Shown here one piece after another: positions 14,551 to 41,648 of a DNA stretch of 64,000 nt. Source of the stretch: Candidatus Hermodarchaeota archaeon. GTDB taxonomy: Archaea > Asgardarchaeota > Lokiarchaeia > Sigyniarchaeales > SOKP01. The stretch covers positions 13,665-77,664 of the forward strand of contig JBHLLO010000007.1 in the NCBI GenBank assembly GCA_048885535.1, in the 5' to 3' direction. The position numbers and the translations under genes are program-made. Numbering within the stretch: the stretch's first letter is position 1; every line of letters begins with the position of its first letter. The notes beneath the pieces are model-generated. The model had not been told where the DNA came from. It worked only from the letters and a program-made list of their open reading frames with translations, and made no database searches.

Positions 14551-15714
14551 TCACCCTCTCCTAAGGAGTATCACAGTTCCCATTTGCATAATATCACCCC
14601 AAGCTTGACCTACCCCAATCCTTGGGTCTCCTGGGATTTGCCTTTTACCTGCCACTCCTTTTAATTGCCAATACAATTCACAAACCTTCTGAGCCATCGT
14701 TGCTGCAATTGGATTTCCTACACCTAATAATCCTCCAGAAGGACAAACTGGAAGATCCCCATCCCGCTGCGTAACACCCTCACGTGTAATAATGGGAGCC
14801 TCTCCTTTCTTACAAAGCAAAAGACCCTCAAGGTGATGCAATTCTTTATATGAAAATGGATCATAAGGTTCGGCAAAATCGATTTCCTTTATAGGATTTT
14901 CAATTTTAGCCATCTTATATGCCATTTTGGCTGCTTGTGCAACATAACGTGGAAAATATAAATCTCTATTAGTCCACATTGTACTATCGATACTCCATCC
15001 TGTACCAGCAACATAAATTGGGTCATCTGTAAACTTATGTACAATATCTTTATTACAAAATATTAATGCTGCTGCTCCATCACTAGGAGGACTAATATCT
15101 AATCTGTTCACAGGCCACGCCATTATCTCAGAATTTAAAACATCTTCTACAGTGATGTTTGGATCTGCCAATTGTGCACAAGGGTGACCAACAGCATTTC
15201 TTTTATTCTTAACGGAGACCAATGCAATGTCTTCTTTCTTGATACCATGAACTGTCATATAACGATTCATTTCCATAGCAAATAACCAGACAAGGTTAGG
15301 TGTGAGGGGTCTATCTAAAATTGGATCCCAAATATGCCTGAAAGCTGTTTGAGGATGAGGATAACAATTACCCATCTTTTCTTCACATACAACTAAGCAT
15401 ATATCTGCAACACCAGAGGCTACATGCCACCATCCAGCAATTGGAGCAAAAACACCAGTGCCACCACCATTAAATACTCGAACGTATGGCTTGCCCACAG
15501 CAGCTGAACCATCTATTAGGTTTTCTCCTTTCATATGGATGCCATCGAAGGCATCAGGAGCACTACCCATTACGACCATATCAATATCATCTTTTTCTAT
15601 GCCGGAATCTTCCATTGCCATTTTCGTAGCTAAATAGGAAAGTTCTTTTCCACTTTCCTTTAAATGTCTACGGAAAAGGGTCATCCCGGCTCCTATAACT
15701 GCTACTTCTTTCAC
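14551..15714 (-). CDS. Thiolase-fold protein, Ltp3-like (second cassette)
   Basis: VAVIGAGMT, RVFNGGGTG (no nucleophile Cys), AEPYDPFS, PSGGLLGVGNP. GTG start after GGAGGTG. Confidence 0.85.
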   Translation of the reverse strand: MKEVAVIGAGMTLFRRHLKESGKELSYLATKMAMEDSGIEKDDIDMVVMGSAPDAFDGIHMKGENLIDGSAAVGKPYVRVFNGGGTGVFAPIAGWWHVASGVADICLVVCEEKMGNCYPHPQTAFRHIWDPILDRPLTPNLVWLFAMEMNRYMTVHGIKKEDIALVSVKNKRNAVGHPCAQLADPNITVEDVLNSEIMAWPVNRLDISPPSDGAAALIFCNKDIVHKFTDDPIYVAGTGWSIDSTMWTNRDLYFPRYVAQAAKMAYKMAKIENPIKEIDFAEPYDPFSYKELHHLEGLLLCKKGEAPIITREGVTQRDGDLPVCPSGGLLGVGNPIAATMAQKVCELYWQLKGVAGKRQIPGDPRIGVGQAWGDIMQMGTVILLRRG

Positions 15715-39921: not shown

Positions 39922-40905
39922 TTAAAAATCAGAATTCCCTAAATATTTCTTTAAATTTTCAAAATCCTCTCCTGTTAGAGTTTCCATCACACCTGAAAAA
40001 ACTTCATTAGTTTTATTGTGGGTAACAGCCATCAAGACTGAACCATTACTTACTTCCTTAACGAGGATGTAATTATTCTCACTTTCGTAAATAATAGTTG
40101 TTAATTCTAAAGGAGTAACCGAACTACTCATAAGCTCCATAATTTTCGTAAAAATTTGGTAAATATTAGAATCAAGTGTTCCAATTTCAAATTTCATAAA
40201 TTGAAGAGGTTTTGTTTCAATTTTTCCTAATGTTGATGCAATGAGTAAACCATCAGGCTGATTGAATAATAGATACTCTGATAAAGTATTTATCTTAAGT
40301 TGATCTAATAAATGCCTTATTTTGCCTAGCTTTTGTAAAGCAAGTGTATTTTTCTGGATTTCATAATCTAATATTTCTATTAAACGGTGTTGGGCGCTAC
40401 CTTCTTTTACGGAGACGGGGGTGAATGCCAGCTTTACTTTTATATCGTCTGATATTCCTTTAATTAAATAATTGTAGAGCTGATCTTCTTTTGAATCTTG
40501 TAAATCAATCTTATTTAATAGAACATAAACAGTTTCTATCTGCGGGCTAAATTCAAAAATAAATGTCAGAAATTTCTCAAAAATCTCTTTTACTCGAGAA
40601 TCAATAACAGTAGCCTCCGCCATAAAAATGGCTGTTGAAACCTCGGAAAATATGAGTTCTCGCTGATTTTCGGAAAAATATCTCTCCATATAACGTTCTT
40701 GACCGCCGGCATCCCAGACTTCTCAGAAATCACCGAATTGGCGAGATCAGTTGAGTTCCATGATGCCGCGGAAGATAAAATTCTCTCTTGAAATGCCCTT
40801 GGTAGGTTTGAGATTCAAAACTTTCATAAAGTTATATCCTAAGCATGTCGTCCTCATTAAGCTTGTCTTTCCGGCATTTTGTGGACCAAATAATAAAATC
40901 TTCAT
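39922..40905 (-). CDS. RagA/Gtr1-like small GTPase with C-terminal roadblock domain; split gene join(40905..40750, 40719..39922), 317 aa after splicing
   Basis: Exon 1 (52 codons, missed by the ORF track) reads MKILLFGPQNAGKTSLMR...KPTKGISRENFIFRGIMELN. Exon 2 reads VWDAGGQERYMERYFSENQRELIFSEV...LLNKID...SEYLLFNQPDGLLIAS. G1, G2, G3 and G4 motifs are all in one frame once 30 nt are removed. Confidence 0.9.
40720..40749 (-). other. Predicted 30-nt bulge-helix-bulge (BHB) intron in a protein-coding gene
   Basis: Intron UGAUCUCGCCAAUUCGGUGAUUUCUGAGAA contains two in-frame UGA codons. Central helix CUCA/UGAG; 3-nt bulges AC^U and AA^G. Cutting after the 2nd nt of each bulge joins AAC|GUC and restores ELN-VWDAGGQ. 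Confidence 0.85.
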
Positions 40906-41120
40906 TTTTCAACATTATTTAAAATTGACTATATAATATATTTCTTATAAGATTGTCTTTATATAATTTTTTCTAATTTATCTACAACTAATAGCATTTA
41001 GTAAGAAGACTAAATCTGTACGATTCAATTAAATATCATTTTTAATTACTTTTATTAGTATAAACACTTAAAATTCTATAACAAGATATATTTTAAAATG
41101 AAAATTAAAGGTTTTTACTA

Positions 41121-41648
41121 ATGGATTTAGAGCAGTATATCAGAAACGTTCCAGATTGGCCTAAACCTGGGATTCAATTTAAAGATGTCACAACATTGTG
41201 CAAGGCTACTGCCCCTTTTAAGGAATCTTGTGATCAAATAATTAATTATTATAAAGATAAAAGAATAGATAAAGTAGCAGCAATAGAAGCTAGAGGTTAT
41301 GTATGGGGGGGCGTAATAGCCTATCAATTAGATGCAGGTTTTGTTTTAATAAGAAAACCGGGAAAACTGCCATATAAAACAATTAGCGAGACTTATGAGC
41401 TTGAATATGGTACTGACACTATAGAAATGCATATTGATGCCATTGAAAAAGGGGAAAGAGTTTTGCTATTTGATGATTTACTAGCAACTGGAGGTACAGC
41501 AAAAGCTGCTTGTAGTTTGATTGAAAAATCTGGTGGGACAGTTATTGGAATTGCATTTATAATTGAACTTATTGGAAGTTTACATGGAAGGGATCTTATA
41601 CAAGAGTATGATATTTTATCATTATTAAAAATACCAGTAGAAGAATAG
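41121..41648 (+). CDS. apt: Adenine phosphoribosyltransferase
   Basis: PDWPKPGIQFKD, IEARG, RKPGKLP, YELEYGTD, DDLLATGGT. Confidence 0.96.
   Translation: MDLEQYIRNVPDWPKPGIQFKDVTTLCKATAPFKESCDQIINYYKDKRIDKVAAIEARGYVWGGVIAYQLDAGFVLIRKPGKLPYKTISETYELEYGTDTIEMHIDAIEKGERVLLFDDLLATGGTAKAACSLIEKSGGTVIGIAFIIELIGSLHGRDLIQEYDILSLLKIPVEE

What the first reader, a model, noticed from the sequence alone, without database searches (positions are those of the whole stretch)
40720..40749. Canonical bulge-helix-bulge intron inside the mRNA of an Asgard Rag-like GTPase
Seen in the sequence (minus strand): ATG 40905 opens MKILLFGPQNAGKTS...FRGIMELN, followed by TGA TCT CGC CAA TTC GGT GAT TTC TGA GAA and then, in the same frame, VWDAGGQERY. 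Removing these 30 nt restores an intact beta3-G3 junction (ELNVWDAGGQ). Independently, the RNA folds as a BHB: exon-1 CUCA (40755-40752) pairs with intron UGAG (40725-40722), flanked by 3-nt bulges ACU and AAG. There is an inner intron stem (GA..UCGCC/GGUGA..UC, 5-nt loop) and an outer exon-exon stem. Established knowledge: archaeal tRNA splicing endonuclease cuts after the second nucleotide of each bulge, and RtcB ligates the ends. Here those cut positions (AC^U, AA^G) coincide exactly with the boundaries needed to restore the protein. BHB introns are common in archaeal tRNA and rRNA but rare in mRNA; crenarchaeal cbf5 is the classic case. Inference: this is a spliced mRNA for a eukaryotic-signature protein, which pipelines would misannotate as a truncated ORF or pseudogene. 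I cannot confirm from here whether it has been described.
Basis: partly seen in the sequence, partly recalled or inferred. Interest (0 to 1): 0.97.

Follow-up and report, generated by a model that had tools for sequence, protein, structure and literature searches.

The report
Spliced mini-intron in Asgard GTPase gene
A 30-base insert with two stop codons interrupts a conserved Rag-like GTPase gene in three Asgard archaeal species, and it has the shape that the archaeal tRNA-splicing enzyme cuts, so it is most likely a rare protein-gene intron removed at the RNA level.

Summary
On the minus strand, a 30-nt insert (40749..40720) with two in-frame TGA codons splits a Gtr1/RagA-type GTPase gene. 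[quoted passage not shown] Cutting after the second base of each bulge removes exactly these 30 nt and restores ...GIMELN|VWDAGGQ..., as in every uninterrupted ortholog.

Two other species-level genomes of the same genus, G045 and G054, carry a 30-nt insert at the same codon boundary. It is 25/30 identical to the G000 insert, and all five differences lie in its interior. In total, 3 of 37 full-length genus orthologs and 3 of 137 order-level matches carry it.

The two carrier sisters differ by 34 synonymous and 19 non-synonymous changes (omega 0.13, P=5e-12 against neutrality), so the gene stayed functional with the insert in place. The insert changes more slowly than synonymous sites.

TGA is a normal stop in this genome. 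Two EndA paralogues and RtcB are present.

No RNA data could be reached, so splicing itself is inferred. Covariation from three sequences is weak: one compensatory pair.

This would be the second kind of archaeal coding-sequence BHB intron after crenarchaeal cbf5, and none was found in print for Asgard archaea. Exon 1 plus the intron has a different phylogeny from exon 2, which suggests spread or loss by recombination at the intron.

The parts
40750..40905 (-). Exon 1, 52 codons: ATG at 40905 to AAC at 40752..40750. It holds the P-loop and the strands up to beta3 of the GTPase domain.
   Evidence: Its protein is identical in 10 of the 19 first-fetched orthologs. G000 and G045 differ here by 14 synonymous and 0 non-synonymous changes.
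40720..40749 (-). The 30-nt phase-0 BHB intron, with in-frame TGA codons at 40749..40747 and 40725..40723.
   Evidence: It is absent from 34 of 37 full-length genus orthologs and present at the same place in G045 and G054.
39922..40719 (-). Exon 2, 265 codons plus the stop codon. It starts GTC TGG GAT GCC GGC GGT CAA, the G3 motif DAGGQ. It continues through the rest of the G domain and the C-terminal part that aligns with Gtr1.
   Evidence: There is no ATG/GTG/TTG in frame between the second TGA and ATG 40689.
40752..40755 (-). Central 4-bp helix, 5' strand CUCA (exon 1).
   Evidence: MFE fold. Invariant in the three carriers.
40722..40725 (-). Central 4-bp helix, 3' strand UGAG (intron).
40749..40751 (-). 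5' bulge ACU. The predicted cut lies between C40750 and U40749.
   Evidence: The cut rule (after the second bulge base) is recalled knowledge. It is consistent with the host's own tRNA-Gly(GCC) BHB at position 37/38.
40719..40721 (-). 3' bulge AAG. The predicted cut lies between A40720 and G40719.
40726..40748 (-). Inner intron hairpin (h'): GA/UC next to the central helix, a 2x2 internal loop, the UCGCC/GGUGA stem and the AAUUC loop.
   Evidence: All five differences between the carrier variants lie here. One is compensatory (C-G to U-A) and one breaks a G-U pair.
40757..40771 (-). Exon-exon closing helix, 5' strand (40771..40762 and 40759..40757).
   Evidence: All 13 of 13 pairs form in G000, against 6-11 of 13 in 19 intronless orthologs.
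40703..40718 (-). Exon-exon closing helix, 3' strand (40718..40716, 40713..40708, 40706..40703).
   Evidence: Four G000-specific synonymous changes here each make a Watson-Crick pair.

Best explanation
The 30 nt are an archaeal bulge-helix-bulge intron inside the coding sequence of a Gtr1/RagA-like GTPase gene. In the pre-mRNA, the end of exon 1 (CUCA) pairs with the end of the intron (UGAG). A 3-nt bulge lies on each side, an intron hairpin lies inside, and an exon-exon helix closes the motif.

The host's two-subunit splicing endonuclease (EndA alpha/beta) cuts after the second base of each bulge, and RtcB joins the exons. This removes both TGA stops and yields the full-length 317-residue GTPase with an intact beta3-G3 junction. 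The excised 30-mer is probably circularised.

Shown here: the structure, the exact match between cut sites and ortholog boundaries, retention in three species with the protein under purifying selection, conservation of the intron ends, and presence of the enzymes. Inferred: the cleavage and ligation themselves. Also inferred is that the intron with exon 1 has moved between lineages, or been lost, by homologous recombination with a breakpoint at the intron.
For: 1. Structure. The MFE fold is a BHB (-30.4 kcal/mol, z -2.88). 2 of 20,000 insert shuffles give one in register. It is the only one of 9,786 genome-wide candidates to pass the filter.

2. Splice product. Removing 40749..40720 gives ...GIMELNVWDAGGQ..., as in all 19 first-fetched orthologs. 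The yeast Gtr1 alignment has a 10-residue gap exactly there.

3. Carriers. G045 and G054 come from different MAG records. They are 77% identical to G000 over 16 kb, and they hold a 30-nt insert at the same site. It is 25/30 identical, with CUCAAC, both bulges, UGAG and the first inner pairs unchanged.

4. Selection with the intron in place.
- G045 vs G054: 34 synonymous and 19 non-synonymous differences, omega 0.127, binomial P=5e-12 against neutrality.
- G000 vs G045, exon 1: 14 synonymous and 0 non-synonymous differences.
- G000 terminal branch omega is 0.034, against 0.031 and 0.058 for its intact sisters.

5. Intron constraint.
- 0/30 differences between G045 and G054 (P=0.003 at their synonymous rate).
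- 5/30 between G000 and G045 against pS 0.449 in exon 1 (P=0.001).
- 0/15 at the BHB-forming ends (P=1.3e-4).
- Read as codons, the two variants differ by 4 non-synonymous and 1 synonymous change, so the insert does not behave as coding sequence.

6. Stop codons. TGA is a normal stop. It ends 191 of 1,245 open frames of 300 codons or more, with a median of 6 codons to the next stop.

7. Enzymes. Two EndA-domain ORFs (99.7 and 70.2 bits) and one RtcB (560.9 bits) are present in G000. Both EndA paralogues are also in G045 and G054. Asgard EndA is reported as the (alpha-beta)2 type with the loop linked to broad specificity (PMC5829648, passages).

8. Host comparator. The host's own tRNA-Gly(GCC) intron at 37/38 has the same geometry.

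9. Flanks. All 13 of 13 exon-exon pairs form in G000, against 6-11 of 13 in 19 intronless orthologs.
Against: - No RNA evidence.
- Covariation is weak. With three sequences there is one compensatory pair and one broken pair, and 173 of 500 shuffles score as high.
- In G045/G054 the MFE places the 3' bulge in a 5x5 internal loop. Canonical or offset forms cost +3.8 and +2.9 kcal/mol, and their fold z-scores are only -1.66 and -1.48.
- G000 has an extra unpaired A opposite the 3' bulge.
- The intron is absent from 34 of 37 genus orthologs, including the nearest relatives of each carrier. It is therefore dispensable, and its history needs at least 2 changes.
- The EndA specificity loop was not examined here.
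- In archaea translation can start on nascent RNA, so unspliced transcripts would give a 52-residue product.
Confidence: 0.85

Rival explanations
1. The gene is a pseudogene. A 30-nt insertion with two stops killed it, and the hairpin-like shape is incidental.
For: There are two in-frame stops. Gene callers split the gene. Most relatives lack the insert.
Against: - Apart from the insert, the reading frame is intact in all three carriers.
- Omega is 0.127 between the two carrier sisters (P=5e-12). Exon 1 shows 0 non-synonymous against 14 synonymous differences between G000 and G045.
- G000's branch omega of 0.034 equals that of its intact sisters.
- The insert is itself conserved below the synonymous rate.
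- The chance of an in-register BHB is about 1e-4.
- The gene is single-copy and found in 137 of 154 genomes of the order.
Confidence: 0.04
2. Translational recoding rather than RNA splicing. Either both UGA codons are read through (for example as selenocysteine; the genome has a tRNA-SeC), giving a 10-residue insertion, or the ribosome hops over the insert as in phage T4 gene 60.
For: A tRNA-SeC gene exists on C73. A stop codon followed by a hairpin resembles the gene 60 take-off site (recalled). GAA occurs both two codons before the insert and as its last codon.
Against: - The insert does not evolve as coding sequence: 4 non-synonymous and 1 synonymous difference between the variants.
- It would split the beta3-G3 junction, where 34 of 37 genus orthologs and yeast Gtr1 have nothing.
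- The codon before the stop (AAC) has no matching landing codon. A GAA-to-GAA hop would delete the conserved L-N.
- TGA behaves as a stop genome-wide.
- Recoding does not explain the exact BHB register.
Confidence: 0.04
3. The gene is split. A 52-residue N-terminal peptide and a 255-residue protein starting at ATG 40689 are made separately and assemble.
For: Both ORFs exist and are called as separate proteins in public data.
Against: - The ten codons VWDAGGQERY, which hold the G3 motif essential to any GTPase, lie between the second TGA and the first possible start codon. Neither product would contain them.
- Those codons are nevertheless kept at the protein level: 6 synonymous and 1 non-synonymous difference between G000 and G045.
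- This reading does not explain the conserved BHB.
Confidence: 0.03
4. The insert is an assembly or sequencing artefact.
For: The genome is a metagenome-assembled genome of 112 contigs. No reads could be inspected.
Against: The insert occurs in three species-level genomes from differently named MAG records, with diverged sequence. The exact 52-aa ORF is on record on 3 contigs from several sources.
Confidence: 0.01

Closest known systems
The cbf5 pre-mRNA intron of Crenarchaeota (Desulfurococcales, Sulfolobales). Watanabe et al. 2002 and Yoshinari et al. 2006 were seen only as citations. Yokobori et al. 2009 (PMC2738675): abstract and Background read.
   Same: Both are short introns inside a protein-coding sequence with a BHB-like motif at the exon-intron boundaries. 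Both are cut by EndA of the hetero-oligomeric type. Both lie in a gene with a eukaryotic counterpart, and both show lineage-specific gain and loss.
   Different: This one is in a different gene (a Gtr1/RagA-like GTPase) and a different phylum (Asgard/Promethearchaeota). G000's own cbf5 is uninterrupted. It is much younger and patchier: 3 of 37 genus orthologs carry it. It is linked to a recombinant exon 1. cbf5 splicing has been shown experimentally, whereas this one is inferred.
BHB intron in the 5' UTR of Haloferax volcanii HVO_1309 mRNA (Schwarz et al. 2020, PMC7714728; passages read).
   Same: An mRNA substrate of the archaeal splicing endonuclease outside tRNA and rRNA.
   Different: That intron lies in the untranslated leader and does not interrupt the reading frame. 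That paper states that cbf5 was the only other mRNA case reported up to then.
tRNA introns of Asgard archaea (bioRxiv 10.64898/2026.10.13.758758, passages read; Kaneta et al. 2018, PMC5829648, passages read).
   Same: The same motif and presumably the same enzyme. Asgard tRNA genes are heavily interrupted and their introns were gained repeatedly. ARAGORN of G000's 34 tRNA genes as intron-bearing.
   Different: The host RNA is an mRNA. [quoted passage not shown] The preprint's main text has no occurrence of 'mRNA'. Its supplements could not be seen.
Unconventional HAC1/XBP1 mRNA splicing in eukaryotes (IRE1 cut, ligation by tRNA ligase or RtcB; recalled, mentioned in PMC8718801's abstract listing).
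   Same: Spliceosome-independent removal of a short intron from a coding mRNA by an endonuclease that reads stem-loops, followed by tRNA-type ligation. The unspliced form ends early.
   Different: A different endonuclease family and a different motif. HAC1/XBP1 splicing is a regulated stress switch. No regulation is shown here.

Membership tests
Archaeal BHB (EndA/RtcB-spliced) intron | [quoted passage not shown] | tested here: met
   The G000 MFE shows exactly this, with one extra unpaired base opposite the 3' bulge. In G045/G054 the 5' bulge, central helix and inner helix are in the MFE, while the 3' bulge lies in a 5x5 internal loop. That is the relaxed form.
Archaeal BHB (EndA/RtcB-spliced) intron | Cuts after the second base of each bulge give a functional mature RNA. 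| tested here: met
   The predicted cuts remove 40749..40720 and restore the sequence of all uninterrupted orthologs in frame. The cut rule itself is recalled. It agrees with the host tRNA-Gly(GCC) intron at 37/38.
Archaeal BHB (EndA/RtcB-spliced) intron | The host encodes the splicing endonuclease and the RtcB ligase. | tested here: met
   There are two PF01974 ORFs (99.7 and 70.2 bits) and one PF01139 ORF (560.9 bits) in G000. Both EndA paralogues are in G045 and G054.
Archaeal BHB (EndA/RtcB-spliced) intron | The structure is conserved through sequence change among homologous introns. | tested here: inconclusive
   There are three carriers. The central helix and bulges are invariant. There is one compensatory pair and one broken pair, and 173 of 500 shuffles score as high. 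The ends are conserved below the synonymous rate.
Archaeal BHB (EndA/RtcB-spliced) intron | Observed cleavage and exon ligation (spliced RNA, circular intron). | not testable with these tools
Gtr1/RagA GTPase family (Pfam PF04670) | Profile match above the curated cut-off over the G domain. | tested here: met
   62.5 bits against a cut-off of 22, E=5e-17, residues 2-156.
Gtr1/RagA GTPase family (Pfam PF04670) | A C-terminal domain following the G domain, as in Gtr1/Rag proteins. | tested here: met
   phmmer aligns residues 2-294 to yeast Gtr1 3r7w_A residues 5-284, E=1.2e-12. The fold of the C-terminal part was not modelled.
Programmed translational bypass (T4 gene 60 type) | Matched take-off and landing codons, with a stop directly after the take-off codon. 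| tested here: not met
   The take-off codon next to the stop is AAC, and the codon before exon 2 is GAA. The features of gene 60 are recalled.

The most novel reading that the evidence does not exclude
This is a young BHB intron that is still moving. The cassette 'exon 1 + intron' has a genealogy of its own. The three carriers group together for exon 1, although exon 2 and the surrounding 20 kb place G000 with intronless G010/G018. G045/G054 sit beside intronless G047, whose exon 2 is 3% different but whose exon 1 is 22% different.

In two separate lineages, therefore, a recombination breakpoint lies at the intron's 3' end. That would mean an EndA-type mRNA intron spreads, or is erased, between Asgard species by homologous recombination with co-conversion of the upstream exon. 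After arrival in G000, the downstream exon acquired synonymous changes that rebuilt the closing helix.

If splicing is also incomplete or regulated, it would act as a switch on a Rag-like GTPase in the closest archaeal relatives of eukaryotes.
Probability: 0.3. Interest if true: 0.9.

Novelty: new member of a known kind. Interest (0 to 1): 0.8.

Why it matters
In the literature I could search, EndA-type splicing of an archaeal coding sequence rests on one gene, crenarchaeal cbf5. A 2020 paper still names it as the only case besides one 5'-UTR intron (PMC7714728, passages).

A second case sits in Asgard archaea, inside a homologue of the eukaryotic Rag/Gtr GTPases. It shows that the tRNA-splicing machinery of the lineage nearest to eukaryotes can be used on protein genes.

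The three-species series also offers a natural experiment: the same gene with and without the intron, two sequence variants, and different exon partners for the closing helix. That makes the rules of mRNA BHB recognition and intron gain and loss directly testable.

There is a practical consequence too. Annotation pipelines report this conserved gene as a 52-residue ORF plus a truncated protein. Similar cases are probably being missed.

Tried and rejected

- **Second copies of the intron.**
  - blastn-short of the 30-mer and of the 76-nt motif against G000 found nothing longer than 14-15 exact bases, or 16 of 17.
  - Neither variant, with up to 3 mismatches, occurs elsewhere in the 42 genomes of the genus.
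  - The exact pattern and a pattern with N at five positions found nothing in metagenome contigs.
  - In genome contigs they found only the two known carrier contigs.
  - It is therefore not a multi-copy element.

- **Other mRNA BHB introns in G000.**
  - A scan of both strands for loose BHB patterns that join open frames gave 9,786 candidates. One passed the strict MFE filter, the finding itself.
  - With constrained folding of 2,106 candidates, the next best lies in the N-terminal region of an intact 487-aa ORF on C58.
  - With a relaxed filter, 15 of 3,051 passed. The next best by energy (window about 14,870-14,950, minus strand) lies inside an intact 387-aa thiolase-like ORF. The other 13 were not examined.
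  - Both candidates were rejected.
  - The scan is insensitive. Only 1 of 34 ARAGORN tRNA loci, 23 of them called with introns, passed the same MFE test. Absence of further introns is therefore not shown.

- **Known RNA families.** Rfam gave nothing relevant in 40300..41100, only two sub-threshold chance hits.

- **Genetic code.** TGA reassignment is rejected.

- **More carriers.** A search of the large protein collection for further short exon-1 ORFs found two fragments of no use.

- **Extent of the mosaic.** The upstream intergenic region shows no clear excess similarity between G000 and G045 beyond about 50 nt. An earlier whole-500-nt identity figure was driven by indels. The mosaic tract is thus roughly exon 1 plus the intron.

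- **Exon 1 topology.** Exon 1 alone does not reject the species-like topology (AU p=0.137), and the groups were named after seeing the data.

- **Literature.** Five full-text searches found no paper describing a BHB intron in an Asgard protein-coding gene. Supplements are closed. Those of the 2026 preprint on Asgard tRNA introns might list non-tRNA insertions.

- **Not done.** No covariance model was built: three sequences carry too little information.
Full report
**What is in the sequence.** On the minus strand an ORF opens at ATG 40905 and reads MKILLFGPQNAGKTS...FRGIMELN. It stops at TGA 40749..40747. Thirty bases later, after a second in-frame TGA (40725..40723) and GAA, the same frame continues VWDAGGQERYMERYF... 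for 265 codons, to a stop at 39924..39922.

Read through with X at the two stops, the product matches Pfam Gtr1_RagA (62.5 bits, cut-off 22). It aligns over residues 2-294 with yeast Gtr1 (3r7w_A, E=1.2e-12). That alignment opens a ten-residue gap exactly at the insert, between ...LN and (V/L)WD.GGQ. Source names for members of its 90% cluster, and the titles of two related contigs, read Promethearchaeota, that is, Asgard archaea.

**The RNA shape.**
- CUCA (40755-40752) pairs with UGAG (40725-40722).
- Bulge ACU lies on the 5' side and bulge AAG on the 3' side.
- An inner intron hairpin lies inside.
- A 13-bp exon-exon helix closes the motif.

The one departure from the textbook form is that A40756 is unpaired opposite the 3' bulge. 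The strictly canonical alternative costs 4.5 kcal/mol.

The rule that EndA cuts after the second base of each bulge is recalled knowledge. It fits the host's own tRNA-Gly(GCC). Its intron sits at 37/38, positions 32-35 form the central helix, and 36, 37 plus the first intron base form the 5' bulge. Applied here, the rule removes exactly 40749..40720, a phase-0 intron.

**Chance.**
- I shuffled the 30 nt 20,000 times with the flanks kept. 166 shuffles allowed the central helix in register, and 2 gave an in-register BHB by MFE.
- A whole-genome scan for loose BHB patterns that would join two open frames gave 9,786 candidates. Only this one passed the MFE test.
- That filter is strict. Only 1 of 34 ARAGORN tRNA loci passed it, and 23 of those were called with introns. 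So it speaks for the quality of this motif, not for the absence of others.
- The next-best candidates under looser rules lie inside intact genes and were rejected.

**Orthologs.** The gene is found in 137 of 154 genomes of the order at E<=1e-60. In the first 19 same-genus orthologs fetched, the junction is contiguous (ELN|VWD or close variants) and the 30 nt are absent. Searching all 42 genomes of the genus changed the picture. G045 and G054 have 981-nt matches with two TGA inside.

Both carry a 30-nt insert at the same codon boundary. It is 25 of 30 identical to that of G000, with differences at intron positions 5, 7, 12, 18 and 19, all in the interior. The exon CUCAAC, both bulges, UGAG and the two inner pairs next to the central helix are unchanged.

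The counts are 3 carriers among 37 full-length genus orthologs and 3 among 137 order-level matches. The carriers are different species-level genomes. G000 is 77% identical to G045 and G054 over 16 kb, and the two contigs belong to differently named MAG records. This disposes of an assembly artefact.

**Is the gene alive with the intron in it?** This is the key test, and it comes out clearly.
- G045 and G054 are sister taxa that both have the intron. Their coding sequences differ by 34 synonymous and 19 non-synonymous changes. That gives omega 0.127, with binomial P=5e-12 against the neutral expectation.
- Exon 1 differs between G000 and G045 by 14 synonymous and 0 non-synonymous changes.
- The G000 terminal branch has omega 0.034, like its intact sisters at 0.031 and 0.058.
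- No carrier has any other stop or frameshift.

The ten codons VWDAGGQ(E/Q)RY carry the G3 motif. They lie between the second TGA and the first possible start codon, so they can be translated only as a continuation of exon 1. They differ by 6 synonymous and 1 non-synonymous change between G000 and G045. Both exons are thus kept as one protein, which requires that the two stops be removed or passed.

**Is the insert itself constrained, and as what?**
- It has 0 of 30 differences between G045 and G054. At their synonymous divergence (pS 0.176), about five would be expected (P=0.003).
- It has 5 of 30 differences between G000 and G045, against pS 0.449 in the co-inherited exon 1 (P=0.001).
- It has 0 of 15 differences at the ends that build the BHB (P=1.3e-4).
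- Read as codons, the two variants differ by four amino-acid changes and one silent change, which is the opposite of the exons.

TGA is an ordinary stop in this genome. It ends 191 of 1,245 long open frames, with a median of 6 codons to the next stop. The insert therefore behaves as a structured non-coding element, not as an inserted peptide.

**Structure in the other carriers.** The MFE of G045 and G054 (-24.0 kcal/mol; z -1.66 and -1.48) keeps the central helix, the 5' bulge and the inner helix. One stem pair has changed on both sides (C-G to U-A) and one G-U pair is lost. The 3' bulge lies in a 5x5 internal loop, closed by an exon-exon helix in a different register. Canonical or offset forms cost 3.8 and 2.9 kcal/mol. 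This is the relaxed form of the motif.

With three sequences the covariation statistics are not significant: 173 of 500 shuffles score as high. I do not lean on them.

**Enzymes.** G000 has two ORFs with the EndA catalytic domain (200 and 205 aa; 99.7 and 70.2 bits) and one RtcB. G045 and G054 have both EndA paralogues. Published work assigns Asgard archaea the (alpha-beta)2 enzyme, with the loop associated with broad substrate range (PMC5829648, passages; bioRxiv 10.64898/2026.10.13.758758, passages). It also links archaeal pre-mRNA splicing to the hetero-oligomeric enzyme (Yoshinari 2006, seen only as a citation). I did not test the loop myself.

**Flanks adapted to the intron.** The 13 exon-exon pairs of the G000 fold all form in G000. 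In the 19 intronless orthologs, 6 to 11 of them can form. Four synonymous positions in the first 15 nt of exon 2 are specific to G000 relative to its sisters G010 and G018. Each turns a mismatch or wobble into a Watson-Crick pair with exon 1. By my rough count the chance of that is about 1 in 27. It is supportive, not decisive.

**History.** The gene tree, dominated by exon 2, places G000 with intronless G010 and G018 (support 100/98). It places G045 and G054 with intronless G047 (99/90), so the intron needs at least two changes. The 20-kb neighbourhood agrees: G018 is 80-82% identical, G010 about 80%, and G045/G047/G054 77%.

Exon 1 tells another story.

| Pair | Exon 1 differences (of 156 nt) | Exon 2 differences (of 798 nt) | Fisher p |
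|---|---|---|---|
| G000 vs G045 or G054 | 14 | 168 (G045) | 2e-4 (G045) |
| G000 vs G010 | 34 | 116 | 0.03 |
| G000 vs G018 | 30 | 117 | 0.15 |
| G045 vs G047 | 35 | 27 | 6e-14 |

- An exon-1 tree groups the three carriers (support 80/95).
- Exon 2 rejects that grouping (AU p=1e-8).
- Exon 1 alone cannot reject the species-like grouping (p=0.137), and I named the groups after seeing the data.
- The shared tract does not clearly extend more than about 50 nt upstream of the ATG.

The simplest reading is that a cassette of exon 1 plus intron was exchanged between lineages by homologous recombination, ending at the intron, or was replaced by an intronless one. Which events were gains and which were losses cannot be told from these data.

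**What is known.** Five full-text searches found no description of a BHB intron in an Asgard protein gene. A 2020 study of Haloferax EndA substrates states that, besides its own 5'-UTR case, only the crenarchaeal cbf5 intron had been reported in mRNA (PMC7714728, passages). The cbf5 work describes gain and loss of that intron (PMC2738675, abstract and Background). G000's own cbf5 is uninterrupted. The present case is a new member of that known kind, in a new gene and a new phylum.

**Limits.**
- No RNA or read data could be examined, so cleavage and ligation are inferred.
- Supplements of papers were closed.

**Verdict.**
- I put 0.85 on an EndA/RtcB-spliced BHB intron. The remainder is split among pseudogene, translational recoding, split gene and artefact.
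- Interest is high for specialists in archaeal RNA processing and eukaryogenesis.

Noticed in passing
G000:C42:557-647 (minus strand): ARAGORN calls this a tRNA-Cys(GCA) with an intron at position 35. Removing the 20-nt intron defined by the clean BHB there (CUGC/GCAG, bulges CAU and AAC) gives a 71-nt tRNA-Gly(GCC) with the intron at 37/38. The ARAGORN intron calls in this genome (23 of 34 tRNAs) should be treated with care.
   Followed up: partly
L029 (G047:C98:8178-10128) compared with L027 (G045): G047's ortholog is 3.4% different from G045's in exon 2 (27/798) but 22% different in exon 1 (35/156, Fisher p=6e-14). It also lacks the intron. This is a sharp mosaic with the breakpoint at the intron site.
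   Followed up: partly
G089:C98:3742-4695: The ortholog in this same-family genome has normal length (954 nt) but one in-frame TAA. This is a point nonsense change or a sequencing error, not an insert.
   Followed up: no
L025 (G022:C174:900-3300): G022 (92% complete) shows no full ortholog. Its best match is a 159-aa ORF, 52% identical, that lacks the P-loop end and stops early.
   Followed up: no
G000:C73:9476-9568: A tRNA-SeC(TCA) gene, so this Asgard genome probably uses selenocysteine somewhere.
   Followed up: no
window 14870-14950 (minus strand): A strong hairpin with a BHB-like 3' half (-24.1 kcal/mol in an 85-nt window) lies inside an intact 387-aa thiolase-like gene (14551..15714). 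It was judged a chance structure, because 'splicing' there would break the frame.
   Followed up: yes
L024 (G000:C58:14800-17400), about 780-880: A stable BHB-like fold (-22.6 kcal/mol) lies in the region encoding the N-terminal membrane anchor of a 487-aa solute-binding-type protein. The outer helix is not adjacent to the central helix and the ORF is intact. It was judged a false positive.
   Followed up: yes
window 40906-41120: The intergenic region between the GTPase gene and the divergently transcribed 175-aa phosphoribosyltransferase-like gene (41121..41648) aligns poorly with G010 and G018. The BLAST alignments break there, with indels of tens of bases.
   Followed up: partly
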